A stretch of DNA of 38,118 bases, taken from IMG/VR virus record IMGVR_UViG_3300035703_000210, positions 1-38,118 of that record, one strand, 5' to 3'. This document shows, one piece after another, positions 10,036 through 34,385 of the stretch. This stretch comes from a virus. Lineage: Duplodnaviria; Caudoviricetes. The position numbers were made by a program, and so were the translations under genes. Positions within the stretch are counted from its first letter, which is position 1; every line of letters starts with the position of its first letter. The notes under the pieces are model-generated. The model worked only from the letters and a program-made list of their open reading frames with translations, did no database searches and was not told the DNA's origin.

Positions 10036-10207
10036 AAATCTAAAAGAGTTGTTGAAGTACACGCGAACCCTTGCCGCGGAAAGCGACAACAAGTTGCGCG
10101 TTGCGCGCAGGTTTATCCACTCGTTATTGCATCCTGAAGAGTTTGGACACGCAGTTACGGAAGAGGTGCGAGGCAAAGCGTTAGAAATCATCAGGCAGAT
10201 TTCATGA
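10016..10207 (+). CDS. Small helical protein, paralogue of 12180-12398
   Basis: 63 aa, ATGA-coupled to the epimerase. Its C-terminal half aligns without gaps to 12180-12398. Confidence 0.7.
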   Translation: MSTQEVENLKELLKYTRTLAAESDNKLRVARRFIHSLLHPEEFGHAVTEEVRGKALEIIRQIS

Positions 10208-10998
10208 AGCGCGTCTTGCTTATTGGATCCGATGGTTACGTTGGCAGCCAGCTGCTAAAAAACATTGCGCATGACGTGAATCTTGTGGCCGTTGATATAA
10301 AAACGGGCATGGATTTCATGGACATGTCAGACGTTGCACTTAGTGCGTTTGATGAGATCCTTTTCTTTGCTGGCGTGTCTAACGTTGCCGACGCTAACCG
10401 CCAACCGCATCGAGCCGTAGCGGAAAACGTTGTATACACATTGTGTCTACTTGAGCGCATGGCGGCACACACAAGGCTGATTTACGCCAGCACAGGATCG
10501 TTGCTTTCAAACGGTGATTCGTTGGTGGCAAACGAACAGCGCGAAAACGCTTATGACGCCAGCAAGTTGTCATTCGACTTGGTGGCTAAGTACATGGGCA
10601 AGCGCGTGATTGGTTTGCGCATGGGCACGGTAAGCGGATGGTCGCCAAAGATGCGATGGCATTTGATCTTTAACGCGATGAACCGATCAGCGATTGAAGA
10701 GGGGCGCGTTTACGTTACTAATCCTGATGCAATGCGAAGCATTTTGTTCCATGACGACTTAGCGGAGCGCGTGATGGAAATCATTGAAGATGACAGCGCG
10801 CAAGGCATTTATCCGTTGGCGTCTTACACCATGAGTATTGGCGAGCTAGCGCACGAGGTGGCAAGTGTTTACAAAGTCCCGGTTGAGTTTGGTGTTAGCA
10901 CAGGCACATATTCGTTCGCGCTCCCAACAATTCCGCAACTCTATTCAATACAAGAACGGTGCGAGCACTTCAAGAGAGCTTATGGACAAAACAATTAA
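10204..10998 (+). CDS. NAD-dependent epimerase/dehydratase (extended SDR)
   Basis: GxxGxxG 'IGSDGYVG', 'IYASTGS', YxxxK 'YDASK' and 'GLRMGTVSGWSP'. Confidence 0.9.
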   Translation: MKRVLLIGSDGYVGSQLLKNIAHDVNLVAVDIKTGMDFMDMSDVALSAFDEILFFAGVSNVADANRQPHRAVAENVVYTLCLLERMAAHTRLIYASTGSLLSNGDSLVANEQRENAYDASKLSFDLVAKYMGKRVIGLRMGTVSGWSPKMRWHLIFNAMNRSAIEEGRVYVTNPDAMRSILFHDDLAERVMEIIEDDSAQGIYPLASYTMSIGELAHEVASVYKVPVEFGVSTGTYSFALPTIPQLYSIQERCEHFKRAYGQNN

Positions 10999-12187
10999 CC
11001 AATGCTTGCTTTGCGAGGGGAAAACAGAAATGATCTTTGATCTTGGCGAGCAACCACCCGCCAACGCGCTAAAGAACAATCCCAACACATTTGTGCGCTG
11101 CGCAAGGCTTGCTGCGCAGATGTGTACACAATGTACGCACGTCATGCAAAAGGTGAGCTACAACGCTAAAGAACTATTCGATCACTATCTATACGTCAGC
11201 GGCACGAGCAACACGCTTAACGATTATTTTGAATGGTTCGCAGAGAACGTTTCGCTCCATCACCCGAACGCTGACGTGCTTGAGATTGCAAGCAACGATG
11301 GAACGTTGTTGCAGAAACTTGCCAAGCGTGGCGCAACCGTAACGGGCATTGAACCAGCAAAGAATTTGCTCGAACTTTCAAGCAAGAAAGGTGTTTACAC
11401 GATCCCGGCTTATTGGCCCTTGAACATGGGCAATGAACGCTATGACGTTGTGATCGCCATGAACGTGTTGGCGCATAACGACGATCCGATTGCGTTTCTC
11501 AAAGGCATTGAGGCTTGCTTAACGGATGATGGCGTTGCGTACGTCCAGGTGAGCCAAATGGATATGCTCGCCAATGGTGAGTTCGACACGATTTATCACG
11601 AACATGTTTCTTTTTTCACAGTTGACTCGTTTACCTTGGCGTGTACCAGAGCGGGTTTAAGGGTAGGTTTTCGCCAGCGCGTTAACGTGCATGGCGGATC
11701 GATGCTTGCAGCAGTATGTAAGCGTGACTCGTTTCCGAGTCCGATCCCCTTTGCACCGAGCAAGTGGAACGAGGGAAGGTTGCACCAGTTGACGTGGATG
11801 GACGGTCAACGATTTTCCAATGGCGTAAACCGTGCCGTGGAATCCATGCGATCCGTCATTAAGCAAGCCAAAAACGATGGGTATGTGGTGGTGATGGTTG
11901 GTTGTGCCGCCAAGGCCGTTACGCTGATGCAAGCCATTAACGACGATCCGCATGTCGTGGTGGATGAATCGCCATTGAAGATCGGTAAGTACCTTCCGAA
12001 CTCCACGCAGCAAATTGTTGCGCTTCAAACCGTATCGGAGATCAGGCAAAAGTGCCTTTTTATCCTTGGCGCATGGAACTTTAAGCAAGAACTGATACGA
12101 AAGTTGCAAGCACTGCGCGATCCACATCTTTACGATTCTGTTTTAACGCCTTTCCCAATGACCTTTAAGGAATCACTCCATGGATGA
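10982..12187 (+). CDS. SAM-dependent NDP-hexose C-methyltransferase-like protein
   Basis: Zn site CLLC...CTQC, 'LEIASNDGTLL', 'NVLAH', 'FDTIYHEH', 'VHGGS', 'GCAAKA', 'VVDESPLKIG.YLP' and 'LGAWNF'. Start set at ATG10982. Confidence 0.9.
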   Translation: MDKTINQCLLCEGKTEMIFDLGEQPPANALKNNPNTFVRCARLAAQMCTQCTHVMQKVSYNAKELFDHYLYVSGTSNTLNDYFEWFAENVSLHHPNADVLEIASNDGTLLQKLAKRGATVTGIEPAKNLLELSSKKGVYTIPAYWPLNMGNERYDVVIAMNVLAHNDDPIAFLKGIEACLTDDGVAYVQVSQMDMLANGEFDTIYHEHVSFFTVDSFTLACTRAGLRVGFRQRVNVHGGSMLAAVCKRDSFPSPIPFAPSKWNEGRLHQLTWMDGQRFSNGVNRAVESMRSVIKQAKNDGYVVVMVGCAAKAVTLMQAINDDPHVVVDESPLKIGKYLPNSTQQIVALQTVSEIRQKCLFILGAWNFKQELIRKLQALRDPHLYDSVLTPFPMTFKESLHG

Positions 12188-12398
12188 GTTTTCAGTTGAT
12201 GAGCAACAACCAGAAAAGAAACGCAGCAAAGCGTCAGCGATTAGCGAGTTGGAATCAAAGTATTCCGAAGCGATGGAGAATCTAACTGATTGCATCGAAA
12301 CGCTCAAAGGCTTGGAGCAATACGGGCGCTTTCAGGATGCCGTGGTTCGCCGCCGCGCTATCGAGTGCTTGAGACGCATAGGACATTGGCCCGCATGA
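12180..12398 (+). CDS. Small helical protein, paralogue of 10016-10207
   Basis: 72 aa, overlaps both neighbours and shares the E-x-[FY]-G...VR..A.E..R.I motif. Confidence 0.7.
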   Translation: MDEFSVDEQQPEKKRSKASAISELESKYSEAMENLTDCIETLKGLEQYGRFQDAVVRRRAIECLRRIGHWPA

Positions 12399-13045
12399 AA
12401 ATAATCATATCAACCACAGGAAGCCCAACGTTGCATGTCATGAAGTCCAGCGTATTTCATTACGCCAAAGGGGTGCAGTTGTGCGTATGGGACGGGAAAC
12501 TTGGCAACTTTGGCGATGACTACAACGCAGCTATTGAAGCGTTTGCAGAAGGCGATGATTCGTTCATCATTGCTAACGATGATGTTGTGATCACGCCACA
12601 AACCATGTCGTTATTGCTTGATGATGTGGCTGCACTGAGCAAAGTGTGCAAACGCATTGGCTTTATCGCAGCGCGTTCAGACTTTGTGCGACCACCGCAA
12701 AACATCAGAGTACCGCGCAACGAAGGTGACGCGATTGAGATGTGCCGCTGGCGCTCTGAGGATGCCATCAAACCCGTTGACGTGATCAGTCCGATCTTTA
12801 CCTGGGTGAACGCCAAAGCGATGAAGGATCACCCGTTTCCGCCGATCAACTGGTTTAGTGATGACGTTGTGTGCGCTGACATGGCGGCAGACGGTTATAA
12901 GCATTTCGTGTCACGCGCTTATGTACATCACGCAGGAAGCATGACGGTTGGGCGTGACGCTAAAGCGTTGATCGGTGCAGCCGCACCGTGGATCGTTGAG
13001 CACAGGCCGGAATACGCCAAAAAATGGTTTGGGGTGCAAGCATGA
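12395..13045 (+). CDS. Glycosyltransferase, GT-A fold (GT2-like)
   Basis: 'NFGDDYNAAI', DxD-like 'IIANDDVV', 'WFSDDVVC' and 'YVHHAGSMT'. Start at ATG12395 by ATGA overlap. Confidence 0.8.
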   Translation: MKIIISTTGSPTLHVMKSSVFHYAKGVQLCVWDGKLGNFGDDYNAAIEAFAEGDDSFIIANDDVVITPQTMSLLLDDVAALSKVCKRIGFIAARSDFVRPPQNIRVPRNEGDAIEMCRWRSEDAIKPVDVISPIFTWVNAKAMKDHPFPPINWFSDDVVCADMAADGYKHFVSRAYVHHAGSMTVGRDAKALIGAAAPWIVEHRPEYAKKWFGVQA

Positions 13046-14187
13046 AAACGCATCGCAGGATTTGCATTCTTACAAACACACATCCGTATGGCGTCACAGA
13101 AAACTTTGCCCGCCATATCGCTATCGGGTTTGCGGCACACGGGTTTGAGCCGCACATTGTGAACATCATGGCACCGCTTGAGCAGCAATTTCAGGCGATT
13201 GGCGCGTTATCCGCCATTGATGAATTGTTCATGATTGGCGCACTGCCGCTGAAGGTAAAGATTGGTGATGAATACCTATGGCGCGAAATGTCAAAGCGCG
13301 GTAAGCGCGTGACCTATTACGTCATTGACTCGTACCACAATGACTTGCGACGTGTGCCTGAAGTGCTTGAATACTTGAAAGCATCAAGCAGTGAGGACAA
13401 CCTTTATCACGCGTTTGCGGATTACGAAACAGCTGATGCGCATTTCTTGTGCGGCAATGAGTTGCGCTTTGGCGGGTTTCCTGCTGCGCCGATTGATCAG
13501 GAAGCCATGTACCGTGATCGCTTGCTTGTGTTTGGCGGGATTGGCAACGAGTTAGCGCAGATCAAGGACACGCTTGATGAAACGGTTTCTGAAGTCAGGC
13601 GAACCATTGACTTAAAGGATGATTACTTGTTGCTTGGCGATGGAAGCCATTGGGACGTGCTGAGCAAGGTGCTAGACATTCGCGTGCAATACGACAGGTT
13701 GCACGAAGAAACCTTATTGCTTGATGCGTATTGCGCATTGGATGCGGCGATGAAACGCCACAGACGATTGCATGTCATGTCTGCGCTTAAAGGTTTACCC
13801 ATTGACATTGCAGGGCCAGGTTGGATGGAGCATTTTGGTGAAGTGGACAACTGGCGATATGTTGGTTCCCAACCGCACGCCGCGTTGGGGACGATGGTGC
13901 AGCATTACGCGGGCCTGATTAACTTTGACGCCAATTGGGATTGGTGCCCGCATGACAGGGCACTTACCGCGGCACTGATGAACAGGTCAGTGCTAACAAA
14001 CAAGAACGCACTCAATGGTGAGCTAACGCACACTTACGCGTTTGGCGATTCACAAGCCAGCATTGCCGAGAAATGTGAAGCAATGCTTTACGACTCGCAA
14101 GCTGACACACCGATGTATCCATTTAGCGAAGAGCATTTCAAATGGACATGGCACGTTTCTATCAGGGACTACTTAAATGAGCGATGA
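13042..14187 (+). CDS. Putative glycosyltransferase, GT-B fold (CgeB-like C-terminus)
   Basis: 'ICILTNTHPYGV..NFARHIA.GF..HG', 'LPIDIAGPGW' and 'INF...HDRALTAALM..VLTN'. Start at ATG13042. Confidence 0.6.
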   Translation: MKTHRRICILTNTHPYGVTENFARHIAIGFAAHGFEPHIVNIMAPLEQQFQAIGALSAIDELFMIGALPLKVKIGDEYLWREMSKRGKRVTYYVIDSYHNDLRRVPEVLEYLKASSSEDNLYHAFADYETADAHFLCGNELRFGGFPAAPIDQEAMYRDRLLVFGGIGNELAQIKDTLDETVSEVRRTIDLKDDYLLLGDGSHWDVLSKVLDIRVQYDRLHEETLLLDAYCALDAAMKRHRRLHVMSALKGLPIDIAGPGWMEHFGEVDNWRYVGSQPHAALGTMVQHYAGLINFDANWDWCPHDRALTAALMNRSVLTNKNALNGELTHTYAFGDSQASIAEKCEAMLYDSQADTPMYPFSEEHFKWTWHVSIRDYLNER

Positions 14188-14371
14188 GAAAGCAGAACGC
14201 GTAATGCAAAAGGTGTATTACTTGGACACGGTTTTATTCGTGCCGCACTACTCAAAACCGCATTGGTGGGTGTGTGCCGGTGGCATGGAGCGCACGACGA
14301 CATGGCTAAACGAGCGTTACGCCACAAAGGAAGATTTGTACTTGTGGCCGCGTCACTGGAACATGAGCTAA
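14177..14371 (+). CDS. Hypothetical protein
   Basis: 64 aa ORF overlapping the end of the upstream gene. Confidence 0.55.
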   Translation: MSDEKAERVMQKVYYLDTVLFVPHYSKPHWWVCAGGMERTTTWLNERYATKEDLYLWPRHWNMS

Positions 14372-14388
14372 CTGTCATGGTTAAGTCA

Positions 14389-14418
14389 TTGAAATTTATA
14401 GCGTTTGTGGCACAATAT
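14389..14418 (+). promoter_or_regulatory. Putative sigma70 promoter upstream of the GNAT gene
   Basis: TTGAAA (14389-14394), 16-18 bp spacer, then TGG-CACAAT or CAATAT. No RBS before ATG14426. Confidence 0.4.
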
Positions 14419-14425
14419 GCCCGCC

Positions 14426-14860
14426 ATGAAAGCAACGTACACGGTCAAGCAAGTTACGGTGGATGCGAACCGAGAAGTATTGTTGCGTTACATGCAGCGG
14501 CAGATCCTTCCCGCGGACAACGTGATATGTCCGAGCAACGGTTGGTGGTGGGTGGCGTATCTGAAAGACGAGGCTTGCGCGTTCGCGTGTCTGATGCCAT
14601 CAGCCAGTTGGGAGGATACTGTTTACTTGGCGCGGGCTGGCGTGATCATGCACCACGAGGGCAACGGGTTACAGAAAAAGCTAATCCGTGCGCGTTGCAA
14701 GTTTGCTCGCCAACTTGGGAAAGTTTGGGCGGTAAGCGATACGACGGACAATCCAGCGTCAGCCAATTCGCTGATCGCGGAAGGGTTCAGGATGTTCGAG
14801 CCAAGCAAACCGTGGGGCGCGGAACGCACGATCTATTGGCGGAAATCGCTTGCCGTATAA
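14426..14860 (+). CDS. GNAT-family N-acetyltransferase
   Basis: Motif A 'YLARAGV...HEGNGLQKKLI' and motif B 'NPASANSLIAEGF'. Start uncertain (14417 or 14426). Confidence 0.8.
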   Translation: MKATYTVKQVTVDANREVLLRYMQRQILPADNVICPSNGWWWVAYLKDEACAFACLMPSASWEDTVYLARAGVIMHHEGNGLQKKLIRARCKFARQLGKVWAVSDTTDNPASANSLIAEGFRMFEPSKPWGAERTIYWRKSLAV

Positions 14861-22139: not shown

Positions 22140-22223
22140 ATGAGTTCCAGCACAACAACTTTGATTCTTGGCGGTGCCGCGTTCGGCGCTTTGTATGCAC
22201 TGATGGTTTGGATCGCGTTATGA
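22140..22223 (+). CDS. 27-aa hydrophobic membrane peptide, not in the ORF track
   Basis: MSSSTTTLILGGAAFGALYALMVWIAL*. GAGGG RBS and ATGA coupling to the recombinase. Confidence 0.55.
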   Translation: MSSSTTTLILGGAAFGALYALMVWIAL

Positions 22224-22879
22224 ATTACGGATATTTGAGGGTTAGCACGGATGAGCAAGCCAACGGTACGAGCCTGGACACGCAACGCAGGGAAGTGACG
22301 GGTAACGCGTTAACGCATAATTTGGTGATTGATCAGTTTATTGAGGATGCTGGTGTATCGGGGCATTTGAATTTTCTTGATCGTTTGGCGGCAAACGGTG
22401 TAACGCCGCAACCAGGTGATGTGATTGTTGTGGCGAAACTTGATCGGTTCAGCCGTAACTCGATGGATACGTTGAACACGGTTCACGCGTTCAAGGAAAA
22501 GCAGATCCGGTTGATCATCAACGGGCATGGCGACGTAACGGATGAGAAGAACATTTACGGGCAGCTGATGCTTGAGATCATGGCGGCCTTTGCTACGCAT
22601 GAGCGCCGCGTGATTAAGGATCGGCAGCGCGTTGGACAGGCCGCCAAGCGAAAGGCTGGCGGGCACATTGGCGGCCATGCACCGTTTGGGTTTAGGGTTG
22701 AGGGCAGCGGGAAAAATGCCGCGCTCGTGCCCATTGCCGAGCAGCAAGCGGCCATTGAAACGATGAAATCGCTTGCTGGTTCCATGTCACTGCGCGCCAT
22801 TGCCGATGAAGTGAGAAAGCGTCACGGCGTGGCCATTTCGCATGTGGCGGTTAAAAAGGTATTGAATCGTGGAAATTAG
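22220..22879 (+). CDS. Serine recombinase (resolvase/invertase family)
   Basis: 'YGYLRVSTDEQ' (catalytic Ser), 'DAGVSG', 'VVAKLDRFSRN', 'AFATHERRVIKDR', 'GGHAPFGF' and C-terminal HTH 'SLRAIADEV'. Confidence 0.93.
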   Translation: MNYGYLRVSTDEQANGTSLDTQRREVTGNALTHNLVIDQFIEDAGVSGHLNFLDRLAANGVTPQPGDVIVVAKLDRFSRNSMDTLNTVHAFKEKQIRLIINGHGDVTDEKNIYGQLMLEIMAAFATHERRVIKDRQRVGQAAKRKAGGHIGGHAPFGFRVEGSGKNAALVPIAEQQAAIETMKSLAGSMSLRAIADEVRKRHGVAISHVAVKKVLNRGN

Positions 22880-24290
22880 GACGCAAGAGGATCTGAATCG
22901 TGTGTTTGTTGAGGCGATCAACAAGTACCGAAAGAACGCACCGCTTTTTGTGCGGGAAGTGATAGGGGTTACGCCTGACGCGTGGCAGGATGAGTTTTTG
23001 AAAGCCATATCGGATGGCGAGCGAAAGATTAGCGTGCGATCCGGTCACGGTGTAGGTAAGTCAACCGGCGCTTCCTGGGCAATGATTTGGTATGTGTTGA
23101 CGCGCTACCCGGTTAAGGTGGTTGTGACCGCGCCAACGAGTAGTCAGTTGTATGACGCACTCTTTGCTGAACTCAAGCGATGGGTGAAAGAGTTGCCACC
23201 CTTGTGGCGCGAGTTGCTTGAGATGAAAACGGATCGCATTGAGCTTGTGGCGTCACCCACGGAAGCGTTTATATCGGCTCGCACATCGCGTGCCGAGCAA
23301 CCTGAAGCCTTACAGGGCGTGCATTCGGATAACGTGATGCTTGTGGCGGATGAAGCGTCAGGGATTCCTGAGGCCGTGTTTGAGGCTGCCGCGGGTTCTA
23401 TGTCAGGGCATAACGCTGTCACGATTTTGCTTGGGAACCCAACGAAGTCCAGCGGGTTTTTCTTTGAGACGCACAACCGTTTGAAGGATGAATGGTGGAC
23501 GCGTCGCGTGTCTTGCTATGACTCAAGGCGCGTGAGCAAGGAATATATCCAGGACATGGCTTCGCGCTATGGCGAGGAATCCAACGCGTTTCGTGTTCGC
23601 GTGTTGGGTGAGTTTCCTGCAACCGATGACGATACGTTGATTGGCGTTGAACTTGTTGATAGCGCGTTTCACCGTGACGTTGCACCGACAGAGTCGCCCG
23701 TGATCTGGGGTTTGGATGTAGCAAGGTTTGGCACGGATTCCACGGCACTTGCTAAAAGGAAAGGGAACACGGTTACGGAGATCAGGAAGTGGAGGAACCT
23801 GGATCTGATGCAAACAACGGGTGCCGTTGTGAGCGAGTACGAGGTAACGCGTCTTGAGGATAGGCCTGTTGAGATTCTGGTTGACTCGATAGGGTTAGGT
23901 GCTGGCGTTGTTGATCGGTTGCGTGAGTTGAATATGCCAGCGCGTGGTGTGAATGTTTCAGAGTCACCTGCTTTGGGGAACACCTACATTAATTTGCGGG
24001 CTGAGCTATGGGGACGCATGAAAGCGTGGCTTGAAAAGCGCGACTGCAAGGTACCTAAAGATGAGTCGCTTTTGGCGGAACTCGTTGCACCGCGCTACTC
24101 GTTTAATTCCAGCGGCAAGATGAAACTTGAAAGCAAAGATGAGATGCGCAAGCGCGGCATGGGTTCACCCGATATGGCTGACGCTTTGGCGTTGACCTTT
24201 GCCAGCGAAGCAGGAACCGCGTTGTACGGGAAGGCTTACAACTCCCAATGGGGTAAGCCAATTAAGAGGAACTTGAGGGCAGTTGTTTAA
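22869..24290 (+). CDS. terL: Terminase large subunit
   Basis: Walker A 'SGHGVGKS', Walker B 'LVADEASG', 'LLGNPT', nuclease 'GLDVARFGTD' and 'SPDMADAL'. Confidence 0.95.
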   Translation: MEIRTQEDLNRVFVEAINKYRKNAPLFVREVIGVTPDAWQDEFLKAISDGERKISVRSGHGVGKSTGASWAMIWYVLTRYPVKVVVTAPTSSQLYDALFAELKRWVKELPPLWRELLEMKTDRIELVASPTEAFISARTSRAEQPEALQGVHSDNVMLVADEASGIPEAVFEAAAGSMSGHNAVTILLGNPTKSSGFFFETHNRLKDEWWTRRVSCYDSRRVSKEYIQDMASRYGEESNAFRVRVLGEFPATDDDTLIGVELVDSAFHRDVAPTESPVIWGLDVARFGTDSTALAKRKGNTVTEIRKWRNLDLMQTTGAVVSEYEVTRLEDRPVEILVDSIGLGAGVVDRLRELNMPARGVNVSESPALGNTYINLRAELWGRMKAWLEKRDCKVPKDESLLAELVAPRYSFNSSGKMKLESKDEMRKRGMGSPDMADALALTFASEAGTALYGKAYNSQWGKPIKRNLRAVV

Positions 24291-24303
24291 CAGGAGAAAA
24301 GAA

Positions 24304-24624
24304 ATGGCGATTCACGCGAAGATGTTTAAGGAAACAAGAAAGAAGATGATCTTTGATTACCTGAAAGGGTTAAAAAACCCTGTCAACGCTTGGCACCTGG
24401 CTGAGAAGTTCGATATAACCACCAAAAGGGTTGATCAACTCATGTCCGAATTGGCGGCAGATGATCTTGTTGTTAAGTCCAAGGGGATCAAAGATATTGA
24501 TGTTCCATGGAAGAAAACCTTTGTTAATTACTTTGAAGTGAAAGAGGAATACAAGACCTTTAAGCCGCGCAAGCCTAAGGAGAAAGTGCTGTGGCATAAC
24601 CCGTTTGGGATAAGGGCAGCGTGA
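24304..24624 (+). CDS. Winged-HTH DNA-binding protein
   Basis: 'IFDYLKGLKNPVNAWHLAEKFDITTKRVDQLMSELAADDLV'. AGGAG RBS before ATG24304. Confidence 0.7.
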   Translation: MAIHAKMFKETRKKMIFDYLKGLKNPVNAWHLAEKFDITTKRVDQLMSELAADDLVVKSKGIKDIDVPWKKTFVNYFEVKEEYKTFKPRKPKEKVLWHNPFGIRAA

Positions 24625-24806
24625 AAGATTACCTTGCAGGCCAAGCCATATGGCGCACACCAGGCGATGATCCGCCACCGCTTGGCGTCAAGATGCTCCT
24701 ACTAAACCCCGGCGGCGTGTGCGTGATCGGAACATGGGAGACGTGGGCTATTGCCTGGGCACCGCTGCCAAAGGTGCCTGAACATATTAAGGATGCGTTG
24801 AAATGA
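24621..24806 (+). CDS. Hypothetical protein (DUF551-like Trp/Pro pattern)
   Basis: 'W.TP.DDPPP.G.KMLL...IGTW...AWAPLP'. Confidence 0.6.
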   Translation: MKDYLAGQAIWRTPGDDPPPLGVKMLLLNPGGVCVIGTWETWAIAWAPLPKVPEHIKDALK

Positions 24807-24997
24807 AAGACTTAACGATTGGCGATGTGATGGGCATTGCCAGGAATACGGGGTTTGATCAGCATGCAGAGAATCTATTTATCTTTGCAGCGCAGATTGA
24901 GTTTGTGGCAAGCGAAGCGCGCTTAAACCATTGCATCGAAGTGCTAGAGAAGAACGGTTACACGGATGCAGCAGATCTATTGAAAGGACAAGGATGA
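24803..24997 (+). CDS. Hypothetical protein
   Basis: 64 aa, ATGA-coupled on both sides. Confidence 0.65.
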   Translation: MKDLTIGDVMGIARNTGFDQHAENLFIFAAQIEFVASEARLNHCIEVLEKNGYTDAADLLKGQG

Positions 24998-25164
24998 ACC
25001 TAGAGCAAATGGCGATCAAAGCCACGGTTAACAGTTTGGTTGAGAACATCCACCCGTCCGTCAAAGCGGATGTGGCAAACGAAATCGCGCAAGAGTTGCT
25101 TGAGCTAACCGATCAGTTGTTGGCGGATTGCGTGGAATTGCTGAGGCGTTTGAATAAAGAATGA
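24994..25164 (+). CDS. Hypothetical helical protein
   Basis: Start re-assigned to ATG24994 (ATGA overlap, AAGGA RBS). Confidence 0.6.
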   Translation: MNLEQMAIKATVNSLVENIHPSVKADVANEIAQELLELTDQLLADCVELLRRLNKE

Positions 25165-25844
25165 TCCACTATCACGGAACACCAATTACGCCTAGAGCAG
25201 TTTTAGAGACTTTATCCGGTGAGCACTTTTGTATTTCCTATGCCGATCCAAGGGACTTAAAAACCTGTCTGAAAATTGGTCAGTCATTGATGCTGGACAA
25301 CGGGGCATTTAGCGCAAAGACACGAGGGTTGCCGTTTGATCCTGACGGGTTTTATCAATGGCTTGATCCTATTCTTGGCCATCCACATTGGGGGGTTGTT
25401 CCCGATGTAATTGATGGGCCTGAAGATCAACAGCGCAAGATGGTTGCAACATGGCCGTTTCCAAAGTCTTTAGGCATTCCAGTTTGGCATCTAGGCTTAT
25501 CGTTGGATTACCTTTGCGAACTTGTTGACGATTGGGGTCGAGTTTGTCTCGGCTCATCTGGCGAATACTGGAATGTTGGTGATGCAAAGTGGCAGGGCAG
25601 AATGGATGAAACATTTAACCGGCTTGCAAAAACATTCGGTCGGTTACCTTGGACGCATGGAATGCGGATGTTGGGACAAGGGCTTGAGCGCTGGCCTTTA
25701 TCAAGCGCAGACTCAACAAACGTTGCTGTCAACCATAAAAGCATGACTGAATGCGCTTATTGCATGGCAAAGCGTATTGACTCAGAAAACCCACCTAACC
25801 ATTGGAACCTTAGACCTGTACAGGAGAACTTATGCTTTACATAG
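25161..25844 (+). CDS. Compact TGT-fold (DpdA-like) guanine transglycosylase-like protein
   Basis: Ordered TGT-like motifs 'LMLDNGAFS', 'VVPDVI', 'IPVWH', 'RVCLGSSG', 'THGM' and 'SSADSTN'. Adjacent to a VUT transporter. Confidence 0.6.
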   Translation: MIHYHGTPITPRAVLETLSGEHFCISYADPRDLKTCLKIGQSLMLDNGAFSAKTRGLPFDPDGFYQWLDPILGHPHWGVVPDVIDGPEDQQRKMVATWPFPKSLGIPVWHLGLSLDYLCELVDDWGRVCLGSSGEYWNVGDAKWQGRMDETFNRLAKTFGRLPWTHGMRMLGQGLERWPLSSADSTNVAVNHKSMTECAYCMAKRIDSENPPNHWNLRPVQENLCFT

Positions 25845-26329
25845 CTATTGGTATTTACACGATTGCAATGACGCTTGCCAATCTTTCGGTCGCTGCGTTT
25901 GGGCCAGCAATCAGCCCGATCAATGCTTTTCTGTTCATAGGTTTAGATTTGGCGTTAAGAGATTGGTTACACGTAAAGCTAAGACTGTGGCAAATGGGTG
26001 CGCTCATAGCATTGTCTGGAGTTCTCACTTATTTGCTTAACCCTGCTAGCGGGAAAATTGCCATAGCGTCGGCTTGCGCGTTTACCTTAGCCGCACTGGT
26101 TGACTGGGTTGTTTTTGTAAAGATGAAAGGTTCGTGGTTTTCTAGGGCAAACAAAAGCAACGTTGCCGGTGCCGCAGTTGATTCCCTTGTATTCCCCACG
26201 ATTGCGTTTGGATCGTTAATGCCTGGAATCGTTCTTTTGCAGTTTGTGGCTAAAATTTTTGGTGGGTTTGTATGGGCATACATTGTTGAAAAACTTAATC
26301 ACCAACAACCAATGTTTGCTGGCGATTAA
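25832..26329 (+). CDS. VUT-family (YhhQ-like) queuosine-precursor transporter
   Basis: Multi-TM protein with 'LANL', 'IGLDLALRDWL', 'IAIASACAF..A.LVD..VF', 'SNVAGAAVDSLVFPTIAFG' and 'QFVAK'. Confidence 0.85.
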   Translation: MLYIAIGIYTIAMTLANLSVAAFGPAISPINAFLFIGLDLALRDWLHVKLRLWQMGALIALSGVLTYLLNPASGKIAIASACAFTLAALVDWVVFVKMKGSWFSRANKSNVAGAAVDSLVFPTIAFGSLMPGIVLLQFVAKIFGGFVWAYIVEKLNHQQPMFAGD

Positions 26330-26372: not shown

Positions 26373-26534
26373 ATGAAAACCAAACCAGTTTGGGACAAGC
26401 CACGTCCAAAATCAGTTGGCAAGAGCGAACCTTTATCCAAAAAGGAAAAGGCTAGCGCAAAGGCGATGGCGAAGTCCGCTGGCCGCCCTTACCCTAATTT
26501 GGTTGATAACATGCGCGTTGCGAGGAAGAAGTGA
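26373..26534 (+). CDS. Small basic protein (53 aa), not in the ORF track
   Basis: MKTKPVWDKPRPKSVGKSEPLSKKEKASAKAMAKSAGRPYPNLVDNMRVARKK*. GTGA overlap with the next gene. Confidence 0.75.
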   Translation: MKTKPVWDKPRPKSVGKSEPLSKKEKASAKAMAKSAGRPYPNLVDNMRVARKK

Positions 26535-27667
26535 GCGATTTTGACCGGTTGCTTGCAATTCGCAGACTGATGGCAAATTATCGGGCACCGGCTACTGGCG
26601 TTTTGCCATCAGCAACGGCGCAAGATAGGAGGCCGCAAGCATATCGAGAGGGCATGGGAAAGCCAACAGCGTTGGCCGAAGGTCTTTCTGCGTTTATGGG
26701 GCAACAACCGCGTTATAGCGTTATGGATCCTCAATCAGACGAGTTTCGTCGGGCTAGAGAGATTGGCGAGCAAGCAAGTGTTGCGGCAGAGTTTTACGGC
26801 GCTTTAAGCCCTTTTGCGGCGGCGTCAACAATGGCAAGCGCACAGCGAGCAGGAAATCTGTTGAGTCCACTTACTGTGTTTCATGGTTCACCGCACAGGT
26901 TTAAGAAGTTCGACGCCAGCAAGATCGGCACGGGTGAAGGTGCTCAGGCTTACGGCCATGGGCTGTACTTTGCTGAAAGTCCTGCTGTAGCTAGGCAATA
27001 TCAAGAAAGTTTGTCAGATTTCGATATGTTGGTTGATGGGAAACCATTTAACCCTGAGAATCCAGCGCATCGCGCTGCGCTAGAAGTTAAACAAAGAGGT
27101 GGGGACGTAGCAATTAAAGACATAGTTGCTAACTACAACCAACAAATAAAAGACCTGAGATCAAGAAACGCTCGGTGGGCTGATGAATTAGCGAAATCAA
27201 AAGAAGAAGAACTGCCGTTCATAAAATCTGGGAAGATGCCTGTTTATTCAGAATCAACAAAAGGATCTTTCTACACAGTAGACCTACCAGACGAACAAGT
27301 AGCAAAGATGCTGGATTGGGATAAGCCGATCAAAGATCAACCAGAAGTCTTAAATATCATCAGAAGTCAGATTAACGACGCTGACATTGCAAGATCATTT
27401 GACGTAAACGTTGAGAAGGGTATTAGCGGCGCTAATGCCATGAAGAACTACGTGCAAGGAAAGACACAAGCAGACCAATCGGCAGTTCTTCAAAAACTAG
27501 GTGTGCCAGGAATACGTTACTTAGATGCTGGATCAAGAGGTAAAGGCGGTACAAGTAACTTTGTCGTATTCCCAGGCGAAGAAAGTAAACTAAGAATCAT
27601 GGAAGTAAACGGAAAACCTGTCGTTATTGATGAGGATGAATTTTCACAAGGATTACTAGGGTTATGA
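26531..27667 (+). CDS. ART-PolyVal-like (ADP-ribosyltransferase-fold) domain protein
   Basis: 'TVFHGSPHRFKKFDASKIGTGEGAQAYGHGLYFAESPAVARQY', 'YTVDLP', 'GIRYLD' and 'NFVVF', matching the polyvalent-protein ART-like pattern. Confidence 0.65.
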   Translation: MSDFDRLLAIRRLMANYRAPATGVLPSATAQDRRPQAYREGMGKPTALAEGLSAFMGQQPRYSVMDPQSDEFRRAREIGEQASVAAEFYGALSPFAAASTMASAQRAGNLLSPLTVFHGSPHRFKKFDASKIGTGEGAQAYGHGLYFAESPAVARQYQESLSDFDMLVDGKPFNPENPAHRAALEVKQRGGDVAIKDIVANYNQQIKDLRSRNARWADELAKSKEEELPFIKSGKMPVYSESTKGSFYTVDLPDEQVAKMLDWDKPIKDQPEVLNIIRSQINDADIARSFDVNVEKGISGANAMKNYVQGKTQADQSAVLQKLGVPGIRYLDAGSRGKGGTSNFVVFPGEESKLRIMEVNGKPVVIDEDEFSQGLLGL

Positions 27668-33363: not shown

Positions 33364-33684
33364 ATGGAAAAACGGATCTTTGAACAAGACGAACTGTTAG
33401 GCATCACTCGCATTTGGCACTTTGACGAGGAAACCGATACAGCTGTCATCGAGACAATCCAGAATGTCCAGCCTATTGTGGAAAGCAATAAGTCCGAATT
33501 CAACCAGGTTGATGAACGCGCCAGGTGGGACGGTGAAGGGCATGGTGTTCGCGTGGCAAGCATTCCGATGAATCTATTTATGGAGTTGGTCGGAAAGGGC
33601 ATTACGCGTAACGAAAAAGATTTTAAGCAATGGCTCAATGACCCAGAAAACCGCCACTTTCGTACAAGACCAGGGAGAGTTTGA
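33364..33684 (+). CDS. Hypothetical protein after the capsid gene
   Basis: 106 aa with 'VASIP...KQWLNDPENRHFRT'. Confidence 0.75.
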   Translation: MEKRIFEQDELLGITRIWHFDEETDTAVIETIQNVQPIVESNKSEFNQVDERARWDGEGHGVRVASIPMNLFMELVGKGITRNEKDFKQWLNDPENRHFRTRPGRV

Positions 33685-34385
33685 TGAGTGATAAAAGGAT
33701 TATTTCGGTTTGCGTTCCAGCGCGTGATGAAGTCCATACGATGTTCACCTTTGACCTAGTGAACGCCATCAGTCATCACATAGGCACCACGGGAGAGATT
33801 GTTAATTTGTTGATGAGCCAAGGCACGTTGCTTTGCTCGCAGCGCACGGAATTGGTTATGAACGCCATTCACGCAAATGCCGACTACTTGCTATTCCTTG
33901 ATAGCGATATGCGTTTTCCTGCGGACACAATTAGCCGATTGCTAGCGCACGGCGAATGCGTCGTGGCGGCCAACTGCGCAAGGCGCAGAATGCCAACGGG
34001 CCCAACGGCAGGGAACTATGACAGGGAAACAGGTCGCAAAGTATTGCGTTACTCGATGCCAGAGGACACGGGCCTTGAGCAAGTGGACATGGTTGGAACG
34101 GGCGCCATGCTTGTTGACATTAACGTGTTTAAGGTTTTGGATATGCCTTGGTTTGCAACGCCATGGGATGTGCAGGCCAAGGGTTACATGGGCGAGGATG
34201 TCTATTTCTGCAAGTTGTTGCGGGATAACGGCATTCCGTTGTATATTGATCATGACCTGTCCAAGCAAATTGGACATATAGGAACCTTCGAGTATAAGCA
34301 CGAGCATACTTGGGCACTCCGACCGATGGAAGATGAGCGCAGAAAAGCAGCGGGCGCTCCGGTCGAAACTCAAAAGGTGGCTTGA
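33684..34385 (+). CDS. Glycosyltransferase, GT-A fold (GT2-like), in the head/tail operon
   Basis: 'ISVCVPAR', 'YLLFLDSDMRFP', 'VGTGAMLV', 'GEDVYFC' and 'IGHIG'. Confidence 0.82.
   Translation: MSDKRIISVCVPARDEVHTMFTFDLVNAISHHIGTTGEIVNLLMSQGTLLCSQRTELVMNAIHANADYLLFLDSDMRFPADTISRLLAHGECVVAANCARRRMPTGPTAGNYDRETGRKVLRYSMPEDTGLEQVDMVGTGAMLVDINVFKVLDMPWFATPWDVQAKGYMGEDVYFCKLLRDNGIPLYIDHDLSKQIGHIGTFEYKHEHTWALRPMEDERRKAAGAPVETQKVA

What the first reader, a model, noticed from the sequence alone, without database searches (positions are those of the whole stretch)
25161..26329. Minimal TGT/DpdA-like enzyme coupled to a YhhQ-like transporter: a salvage-only 7-deazaguanine module
Seen in sequence: a 227-aa ORF carries TGT-barrel-like motifs in the right order. 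LDNGAFS resembles the DSG Asp motif, PDV the base-binding Asp, IPVWH, LGSSG and THGM follow, and SADST resembles the nucleophile Asp. It also has a C-terminal CAYC and overlaps a VUT-family membrane gene by 13 nt. No folE, queD, queE or queC homologue is visible in this near-complete genome. Established knowledge: DpdA/TGT enzymes exchange guanine for preQ0/preQ1 in DNA or tRNA, and YhhQ imports preQ0/preQ1. Inference: the phage imports an external deazapurine and inserts it into its DNA (anti-restriction) or into RNA, using an unusually short transglycosylase. The DNG in place of DSG may indicate a divergent subfamily or substrate. The cassette looks AT-richer than its neighbours by eye.
Basis: partly seen in the sequence, partly recalled or inferred. 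Interest (0 to 1): 0.8.

Follow-up and report, generated by a model that had tools for sequence, protein, structure and literature searches.

The report
Mobile phage DpdA plus precursor importer
This phage carries a swappable two-gene unit, a small enzyme of a known family that likely replaces some guanines in DNA with a 7-deazaguanine base and a membrane protein that likely imports that base; the layout is already catalogued, so the finding is solid but fairly ordinary, and what the modification does for the phage is untested.

Summary
Observation confirmed. The 227-aa ORF is predicted to be a TGT-type barrel (pLDDT 96.7; top folds Cap10, arcTGT, bTGT, DpdA). It belongs to the known 'DpdA-only' phage group: SEN1, MED16 and 7-11 DpdA are 31-42% identical. 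Its partner is a Pfam Vut_1/YhhQ-like protein. No FolE, QueD, radical-SAM, QueC or QueF was found here, and no FolE, QueD or QueC in 21 related viral records. DpdA+YhhQ without biosynthesis genes is already in Hutinet 2019's supplement, and this scan found it before on other DNA. What I add: the pair is a clean ~1.17-kb indel (3 filled, 16 empty among 19 spanning relatives), both forms occur in the same water samples, and it recurs in unrelated flanking DNA. Across the family the importer alternates with a mini QueF-L-fold gene or a QueD-like gene, which points to interchangeable precursor-handling partners. The two tested family members carry only sparse dADG (0.02% and 0.13% of G), and in MED16 it gave no noticeable protection from restriction enzymes, so broad anti-restriction is doubtful. 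DNG is the subfamily norm, and the short length is not unusual. Verdict: new member of a known kind.

The parts
25161..25844 (+). 227-aa compact DpdA (7-11/SEN1/MED16-type 'DpdA-only' group), predicted TGT (beta/alpha)8 barrel; likely active-site residues D46, F50, D82, H110, G131, H166, D184; clade-specific H192/C198/C201
   Evidence: ATG overlaps the upstream gene's stop (ATGA)
25832..26329 (+). 165-aa Vut_1/YhhQ-like membrane protein, predicted 7-deazaguanine precursor transporter; AGGAG lies 5 nt before its ATG; its stop codon is the one that ends the upstream gene in the empty allele
25153..26321 (.). Extent of the presence/absence segment (1169 bp, replaced by 4 letters CAGC in the empty allele)
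25148..25152 (+). 5-bp GTTTG at the left boundary
26314..26318 (+). 5-bp GTTTG near the right boundary (microhomology with the left copy)
24994..25164 (+). 56-aa upstream backbone gene whose 3' end is changed by the insertion (context, not part of the unit)

Best explanation
This is a mobile two-gene accessory unit in which a compact DpdA-family transglycosylase likely swaps a small share of guanines in the phage's DNA for a host-supplied 7-deazaguanine (predicted end product dADG, from preQ0 or ADG), and the YhhQ-like protein likely raises the supply of that base by importing it, most plausibly as a host-dependent counter-defence mark. Shown here: the two genes, their family membership, the absence of detectable biosynthesis genes, gain or loss as one unit, and co-existence of filled and empty alleles. 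Predicted: the TGT barrel. Inferred from TGT/DpdA chemistry (PMC10164549): D184 attacks the target nucleotide to form a covalent intermediate, D46 acts as acid/base, and D82/H110 read the base edge. Inferred from relatives: DNA is the substrate, ADG is the product, and levels are low because the precursor pool is limiting. Least certain: that the transporter imports in vivo, and which defence the mark defeats.
For: Fold: AlphaFold pLDDT 96.7 with eight barrel strands, the conserved residues at or just after strand ends. VIA-align: Cap10 Z 14.9 (rmsd 3.2, 215 aligned), arcTGT 13.9, bTGT 13.2, DpdA 7ui4 13.1; Foldseek's top three rows are TGT-family chains. Family: BLASTP SEN1 41.9%, SPN3UB 35.3%, PEAT2 33.3%, 7-11 31.3%, MED16 40.6%, all named DpdA in PMC6884629 Supp. 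Data 1 or PMC8306585. The family profile also hits DpdA1 of full-pathway phages Knocker (5e-18) and JenP1 (3e-15). Tested relatives: 7-11 has 50 and MED16 354 dADG per 10^6 nt. Context: 61 of 80 closest viral loci carry the VUT gene, and 79 of 80 loci found with the VUT protein carry the DpdA. Other partners are a QueF-L-fold protein (Z 12.5 to 5jyx; 76 of 77 new loci lie next to the DpdA) and QueD-like genes (10 loci); all three partners belong to 7-deazaguanine metabolism. Supply limits DpdA output: 9g DpdA alone gives 84-790 dPreQ0 per 10^6 nt, and CAjan folE/queC mutants incorporate 12-fold less. Mobility and polymorphism fit a host-dependent benefit with a cost; deazaguanine-targeting defences exist (Dag1, GrwAB).
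Against: No activity has been shown for this protein or this short transporter. The modification in 7-11 and MED16 was not tied to DpdA by a knockout in the passages I read. MED16 DNA was cut by the G-containing-site enzymes tested. CAjan yhhQ deletion did not reduce modification. 7-11 and MED16 have no detectable VUT gene, so the importer is not needed for activity. The transporter scores far below the NCBIfam YhhQ cut-offs (25.5 vs 252; 21.6 vs 50.95), and COG1738 is heterogeneous. The best fold match is Cap10, not DpdA, and the unrelated barrel PdxJ (Z 13.6) ranks among the TGTs. Foldseek gave nothing at E <= 0.001. The protein is slightly acidic (pI 6.0), which is not typical of a strong DNA binder. 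The host, and whether it makes preQ0, are unknown.
Confidence: 0.6

Rival explanations
1. Site-specific mimic: the enzyme would write dADG at a few defined sites to imitate the 'self' mark of bacterial Dpd restriction-modification systems, so that the phage passes DpdD-K restriction while staying below the level that triggers modification-dependent defences.
For: Both tested members carry ADG, the Dpd self-mark, not preQ0. Levels equal about 33 (MED16) and 9 (7-11) bases per genome, the order expected for one 6-7-bp motif. There was no protection against ordinary Type II enzymes. Patchy presence fits a patchily distributed defence (inference).
Against: Low levels are equally explained by precursor limitation. 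No motif has been mapped. No Dpd-evasion result appeared in search listing 113. Bacterial DpdA needs DpdB and DpdC, which this unit lacks.
Confidence: 0.17
2. Metabolic counter-defence: the main role would be to bind, consume or move 7-deazaguanine precursors (for example the transporter exporting them), starving host systems that need them (type IV CBASS/Qat deazaguanylation, Dpd, Q-tRNA); DNA modification would be a by-product.
For: The top structural match is Cap10, a TGT that binds a deazaguanylated protein. All three partner types act on the precursor pool. Measured DNA modification is very low.
Against: The Cap10 lead over arcTGT is 1 Z unit. The catalytic-type Asp residues are conserved. 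A QueD-like partner would raise, not drain, the pool. Characterised YhhQ is an importer.
Confidence: 0.1
3. RNA-directed enzyme: it would insert preQ1/preQ0 into host tRNA or another RNA to tune translation, with the importer supplying the base.
For: TGT fold; database label 'queuine tRNA-ribosyltransferase'; YhhQ normally feeds tRNA modification.
Against: Sequence kin are phage DpdA proteins; there is no Pfam TGT hit in any of 106 members; tested relatives have modified DNA; the genome has no tRNA gene.
Confidence: 0.06
4. Dense anti-restriction shield, as in CAjan or 9g: with the importer and enough external precursor, a large share of G would be replaced.
For: DpdA1 homology. The importer is common in this clade (35 of 42 viral 90% clusters), and no importer-bearing member appears among the phages tested in the papers read.
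Against: Tested members reach 0.02-0.13% of G. High levels in DpdA1 phages need phage-encoded biosynthesis. Free precursor in fresh water is likely scarce (inference).
Confidence: 0.07

Closest known systems
Phage 'DpdA-only' group (group 3, Hutinet 2019 PMC6884629; DpdA/TGT_1 cluster, PMC8306585): Salmonella 7-11, SEN1, SPN3UB, Pantoea MED16 gp38
   Same: 31-42% identity, the same DNGAF/PD/PVWH/HG/ADS motifs, similar size, no preQ0 genes; on my tree the 7-11/PEAT2/SEN1/MED16 clade is sister to the window's clade (support 0.987).
   Different: The window's clade adds a CxxC/His motif and usually a coupled VUT gene; 7-11, MED16, SEN1 and SPN3UB gave no VUT or mini QueF-L match.
DpdA+YhhQ-only phages in PMC6884629 Supp. 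Data 1 (CDKM15, eHP-6, phiLM21); also PEAT2, Pam5 and RHph_X2_30 as annotated in GenBank
   Same: Adjacent or near-adjacent transglycosylase and VUT genes; the three supplement rows list no biosynthesis genes.
   Different: phiLM21 DpdA is another subfamily (not hit by the family profile). The paper saw 'no correlation' of YhhQ with any group; here the linkage is tight (79 of 80). None of these phages appears among those assayed in the papers read.
Phage DpdA1 (9g/JenP1, CAjan, Rosebush/Knocker type)
   Same: Detectable homology (E 5e-18 and 3e-15) with motifs in register; CAjan also encodes yhhQ.
   Different: 282-317 aa, DSG motif, encoded with FolE/QueD/QueE/QueC; CAjan and Rosebush modify about 30% of G.
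Bacterial DpdA (S. Montevideo, PDB 7UI4), TGTs and Cap10 (PDB 9NTN)
   Same: Same barrel (Z 13.1-14.9); motif order fits D95/F99/D130/H181/G206/D256 (mapped by order and spacing, not by superposition).
   Different: About 100-190 aa shorter than Cap10, bTGT and bacterial DpdA; no CxCx2Cx22H zinc motif; no DpdB/DpdC or CBASS context seen; 8-14% identity.
E. coli YhhQ / COG1738 (QPTR, Vut_1)
   Same: Pfam Vut_1 above cut-off; hydrophobic; ESM Atlas neighbours are Vut_1 clusters.
   Different: 165 aa against a 221-position YhhQ model; far below NCBIfam equivalog cut-offs; substrate and direction untested.

Membership tests
TGT/DpdA superfamily | (beta/alpha)8 barrel most similar to TGT-family structures | tested here: met
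   Predicted model; TGT-family chains hold ranks 1, 2, 4 and 5 by Z, PdxJ rank 3
TGT/DpdA superfamily | Three conserved active-site Asp plus base-reading His/Gly at strand ends | tested here: met
   D46 105/106, D82 105/106, D184 93/106, H110 103/106, G131 105/106; positions relative to strands; residue-level superposition not available
TGT/DpdA superfamily | Structural zinc site CxCx2Cx22H (bacterial DpdA, per PMC10164549) | tested here: not met
   Only a clade-specific CxxC with H192; the related phage DpdA proteins lack the motif too, so this excludes bacterial DpdA, not phage DpdA
Phage DpdA-only group (7-11/SEN1/MED16) | Sequence clusters with the named members | tested here: met
   family profile E 1e-59 to 1e-92 for these members against 1e-15 to 1e-18 for DpdA1
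Phage DpdA-only group (7-11/SEN1/MED16) | No preQ0/G+ synthesis genes in the genome | tested here: met
   (own record, no terminal repeats); 0 of 21 related viral records for QueC, FolE and PTPS, 10 of them with terminal repeats, with positive control JenP1 matching
Phage DpdA-only group (7-11/SEN1/MED16) | Inserts a 7-deazaguanine into DNA | not testable with these tools
   Needs LC-MS/MS; inferred from 7-11 and MED16
YhhQ/QPTR (COG1738) | Vut_1 domain, membrane protein | tested here: met
YhhQ/QPTR (COG1738) | Equivalog-level similarity to YhhQ (PRK11212/TIGR00697) | tested here: not met
   25.5 vs 252 bits; 21.6 vs 50.95 bits
YhhQ/QPTR (COG1738) | Imports preQ0/preQ1 | not testable with these tools
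   Needs complementation or an uptake assay
Cap10 (type IV CBASS) | Encoded with a CD-NTase and Cap9 (QueC-like) | tested here: not met
   No QueC-like gene; no CD-NTase among 47 ORFs scanned against Pfam and PHROGs; no PADLOC hit for the two genes
Bacterial Dpd R-M system | dpdA clustered with dpdB-K | tested here: inconclusive
   No PADLOC DpdA hit and no such neighbours, but DpdB/DpdC profiles were not searched genome-wide

The most novel reading that the evidence does not exclude
A very large, barely tested family of minimal phage DpdAs (7,814 clusters at 90% identity in one search) writes a sparse, motif-specific dADG mark that counterfeits the self-mark of bacterial Dpd restriction, possibly by inserting the QueC intermediate ADG directly and so needing neither DpdB nor DpdC. 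It does so as a plug-in cassette whose second gene (importer, mini QueF-L or QueD-like) is swapped to suit the host's precursor economy.
Probability: 0.17. Interest if true: 0.72.

Novelty: new member of a known kind. Interest (0 to 1): 0.36.

Why it matters
The layout is known, so the finding alone changes little. It does give a clean, naturally polymorphic two-gene unit for two questions left open in PMC6884629 and PMC8306585: how DpdA-only phages end up with dADG, and what a sparse modification that does not block Type II enzymes is for. If the importer raises modification, it would show that phages tune DNA chemistry through host nutrient uptake. If the mark defeats Dpd restriction, it would be a counter-defence that I did not find in the searches run. 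A 227-aa stand-alone base-exchange enzyme would also be a handy DNA-labelling tool.

Tried and rejected
Sequence searches of the PDB with the protein or its profiles found no TGT, so the link rests on predicted structure and on homology to phage DpdA. Pfam has no family for it (0 of 106 members hit TGT or DpdA), and neither do NCBIfam or PADLOC. DNG as a unique change: rejected. CAYC as the canonical TGT zinc site: rejected. A mini QueF-L in this genome: none. The idea that a mini QueF-L explains ADG in 7-11 or MED16 got no support: no match in either (which had no positive control and also missed Pam5's 86-aa gene), and 7-11 gp031 is an unrelated acidic protein by eye. Weak tblastn hits to T4 polynucleotide kinase (E 0.2 to 10) were treated as chance. 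The promoter/terminator scan found nothing above shuffles. The k-mer analysis gave only general avoidance of several G/C-containing palindromes (AGCT, CCGG, CGCG, GGCC); the 6-mer part crashed and was not repeated, so no target motif was inferred. Expression could not be judged: only contigs were laid, and run X17 is probably DNA. No complex prediction was run, since binding between the two proteins is not claimed. Literature: searches showed no functional study of a DpdA+VUT-only phage; subscription papers and bioRxiv supplements were not visible.

Full report
OBSERVATION. The first ATG overlaps the upstream stop and the second has AGGAG just upstream, which suggests translational coupling (inference). 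The genome is a 38.1-kb phage record with SU10-type portal and capsid genes, rated 100% complete but without terminal repeats. The unit lies between the large terminase and the portal. Most runs holding half or more of the sampled words are labelled freshwater or aquatic. The unit is modestly AT-rich: GC 45.9 against 50.8%, GC3 0.42 against 0.52.

THE ENZYME. It hits PHROG_887 at E 4e-42 but no Pfam, NCBIfam or PADLOC family. It has 7,814 relatives among 7,917 candidates at 90% clustering and 602 representatives at 50% clustering. AlphaFold on a 106-sequence alignment gave pLDDT 96.7 and eight barrel strands. VIA-align ranks Cap10 Z 14.9, arcTGT 13.9, PdxJ 13.6, bTGT 13.2 and bacterial DpdA 13.1. 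Foldseek's best rows are Cap10 and human TGT, none at E <= 0.001. D46, D82, H110, G131, H166 and D184 are conserved and sit at or just after strand ends. By order and spacing they correspond to DpdA D95 (acid/base), D130 and H181 (base edge), G206 and D256 (nucleophile) in PMC10164549 (passages). This mapping is inferred, not superposed.

FAMILY. tblastn found 106 of 50,697 phage records. SEN1, SPN3UB, BTP1, Athena1, HK106, PEAT2 and 7-11 are DpdA entries without synthesis genes in PMC6884629 Supp. Data 1 (file read whole; accessions matched for 7-11, SPN3UB and SEN1). Identities are 42% to SEN1, 41% to MED16 and 31% to 7-11. The family profile also reaches DpdA1 of Knocker and JenP1 but not phiLM21. 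On a FastTree of 130 dereplicated loci (of 298), 10 references and the window protein, rooted on JenP1/Knocker with phiLM21 left out, the window's clade is sister to 7-11/PEAT2/SEN1/MED16 (0.987). DNG (94 of 106) and ~230 aa are therefore normal for this group. CxxC is confined to the close clade (119 of 120 against 0 of 97; H192 in 114 of 120) and may be a local metal site (untested).

THE PARTNER. It is Pfam Vut_1 above cut-off, and its Atlas neighbours are Vut_1 clusters, but it scores far below the YhhQ equivalog cut-offs. PMC5372724 (passages) shows that E. coli YhhQ is needed for preQ0 uptake and that the family is heterogeneous. Import by this short form is thus a prediction.

NO BIOSYNTHESIS. 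QueC, PTPS, FolE, radical-SAM and QueF profiles found nothing in the record, with controls matching. QueC, FolE and PTPS also found nothing in 21 of 21 related viral records, 10 of them with terminal repeats, including one with the same backbone and unit (L002); JenP1 matched.

A MOBILE UNIT. Of 38 loci found with the terminase, 19 span the site: 3 are filled and 16 empty. The empty allele joins 25152 to 26322 with CAGC between; a 5-bp GTTTG lies at both boundaries, and the transporter ends on the stop codon that the upstream gene uses in the empty allele. That joint appears in 3 of 4 runs laid; two of them (X2, X3) also hold contigs that run from the flank into the unit, and X5 showed only the filled form. 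Of 31 loci compared, 12 (L006-L017) match the two genes at 73-88% nucleotide identity with unrelated flanks. Gain is more likely than loss, given the composition and the empty state of more distant relatives (inference).

INTERCHANGEABLE PARTNERS. 61 of the best 80 viral loci (of 593 confirmed) carry the VUT gene, and 79 of 80 VUT-found loci carry the DpdA, the miss having its VUT match at the contig edge. Many others carry an ~80-aa gene whose model (pLDDT 95.9) matches archaeosine synthase QueF-L (Z 12.5, rmsd 1.6, next 9.7; Foldseek E 6e-4). It keeps the Cys that forms the preQ0 thioimide (PMC5485725 passages) but has no Asp where QueF-L has one seven residues later. 76 of 77 new loci found with it lie beside the DpdA. 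Ten loci have a QueD-like neighbour. At 90% clustering: viral 28 VUT, 7 VUT+QueF-L, 6 QueF-L, 1 none (of 42); bacterial-genome loci 23, 3, 8, plus 8 QueD, 1 QueF-L+QueD and 28 none (of 71) (short contigs inflate 'none'). The partners are scattered over the tree. Three unrelated partners from one pathway are strong context evidence for a 7-deazaguanine substrate.

WHAT TESTED RELATIVES DO. 7-11 has 50 dADG per 10^6 nt (PMC6884629 passages). MED16 has 354 dADG and 3 dPreQ0 per 10^6 nt, and its dADG had no noticeable effect on the restriction enzymes tested (PMC8306585 passages). That is about 9 and 33 bases per genome. Neither gave a VUT or mini QueF-L match. Low levels could reflect supply, since 9g DpdA alone gives 84-790 per 10^6 nt and CAjan folE/queC mutants 12-fold less (PMC7544227 passages), or a specific motif. 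CAjan yhhQ is dispensable where synthesis is encoded. QueC passes through ADG (bioRxiv 2025.04.06.647259 passages), so direct ADG insertion is possible; in bacteria DpdC makes ADG on DNA. Dag1 and GrwAB attack deazaguanine DNA and select dpdA mutants (bioRxiv 2025.10.29.685425 and PMC12137116, passages), which offers a cost that could keep the unit polymorphic (inference).

MECHANISM AND ODDS. Most likely (0.6): supply-limited, low-level DNA base exchange helped by an importer, with a host-dependent benefit. Rivals: Dpd self-mark mimic (0.17), precursor sink or transport against deazaguanine-using defences (0.10), dense shield (0.07), RNA target (0.06). By step: TGT/DpdA family about 0.97, DNA substrate about 0.8, import about 0.6, broad anti-restriction about 0.25. 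These odds are my estimates.

KNOWN OR NEW. PMC6884629 defines the DpdA-only group, raises uptake of exogenous precursor and notes phage YhhQ; its supplement lists three DpdA+YhhQ-only phages. PMC10516641 (passages and one supplement search) adds DpdA3/4 and keeps a YhhQ column. This scan reported the same layout on at least three other genomes and the mini QueF-L pairing on several; I had found the QueF-L partner independently before that look-up. Eight literature searches showed no functional test of a DpdA+VUT-only phage and no listing that describes the mini QueF-L. Verdict: real, a new member of a known kind, interest 0.36; the remaining value lies in the clean polymorphic cassette and the open question of what sparse dADG does.

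Noticed in passing
L022:3976-4230 and related loci: An ~80-aa unannotated protein with a predicted QueF-L fold (CP..N, VE, HE, HH motifs) that sits almost always next to this DpdA family; absent from the window.
   Followed up: yes
L081, L088, L093, L101, L105, L125, L126, L155, L164, L165: A lone QueD-like gene adjacent to the DpdA; four of ten keep the CxxxHGH motif, the others lack the Cys, which may mark a different activity.
   Followed up: partly
window 26531-27667: A 378-aa low-GC3 gene with a sub-threshold ART-PolyVal hit is a second accessory insertion: most relatives jump from ~26535 to ~27665, and L332 has a 63% homolog.
   Followed up: partly
window 10204-14860 and 33681-34385: A cluster of NAD-dependent epimerase, C-methyltransferase, unknown ORFs and a GNAT acetyltransferase, plus a glycosyltransferase among the virion genes; possibly sugar modification of virion or DNA.
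   Followed up: no
window 22208-22879: A serine resolvase/invertase gene between the small and large terminase genes.
   Followed up: no
window 24283-24806: The region just after the terminase varies in gene content among close relatives (different spacings): an insertion hot spot.
   Followed up: partly
P0260 (1569 aa), P0181, P0213, P0235, P0249 and others; row 42 of A2: Some homologs are longer or fused, one with an N6/N4 DNA methylase domain; phiLM21 and MED16 have DNA methylases nearby. This fits a DNA-modification context.
   Followed up: no
L104-L140 subset (Solirubrobacterales genomes): A VUT-DpdA pair recurs in many Solirubrobacterales assemblies; whether prophage or chromosomal was not checked.
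   Followed up: no
whole window: The 4-mers AGCT, CCGG, GGTC/GACC, CGCG and GGCC are under-represented, consistent with restriction-site avoidance.
   Followed up: partly
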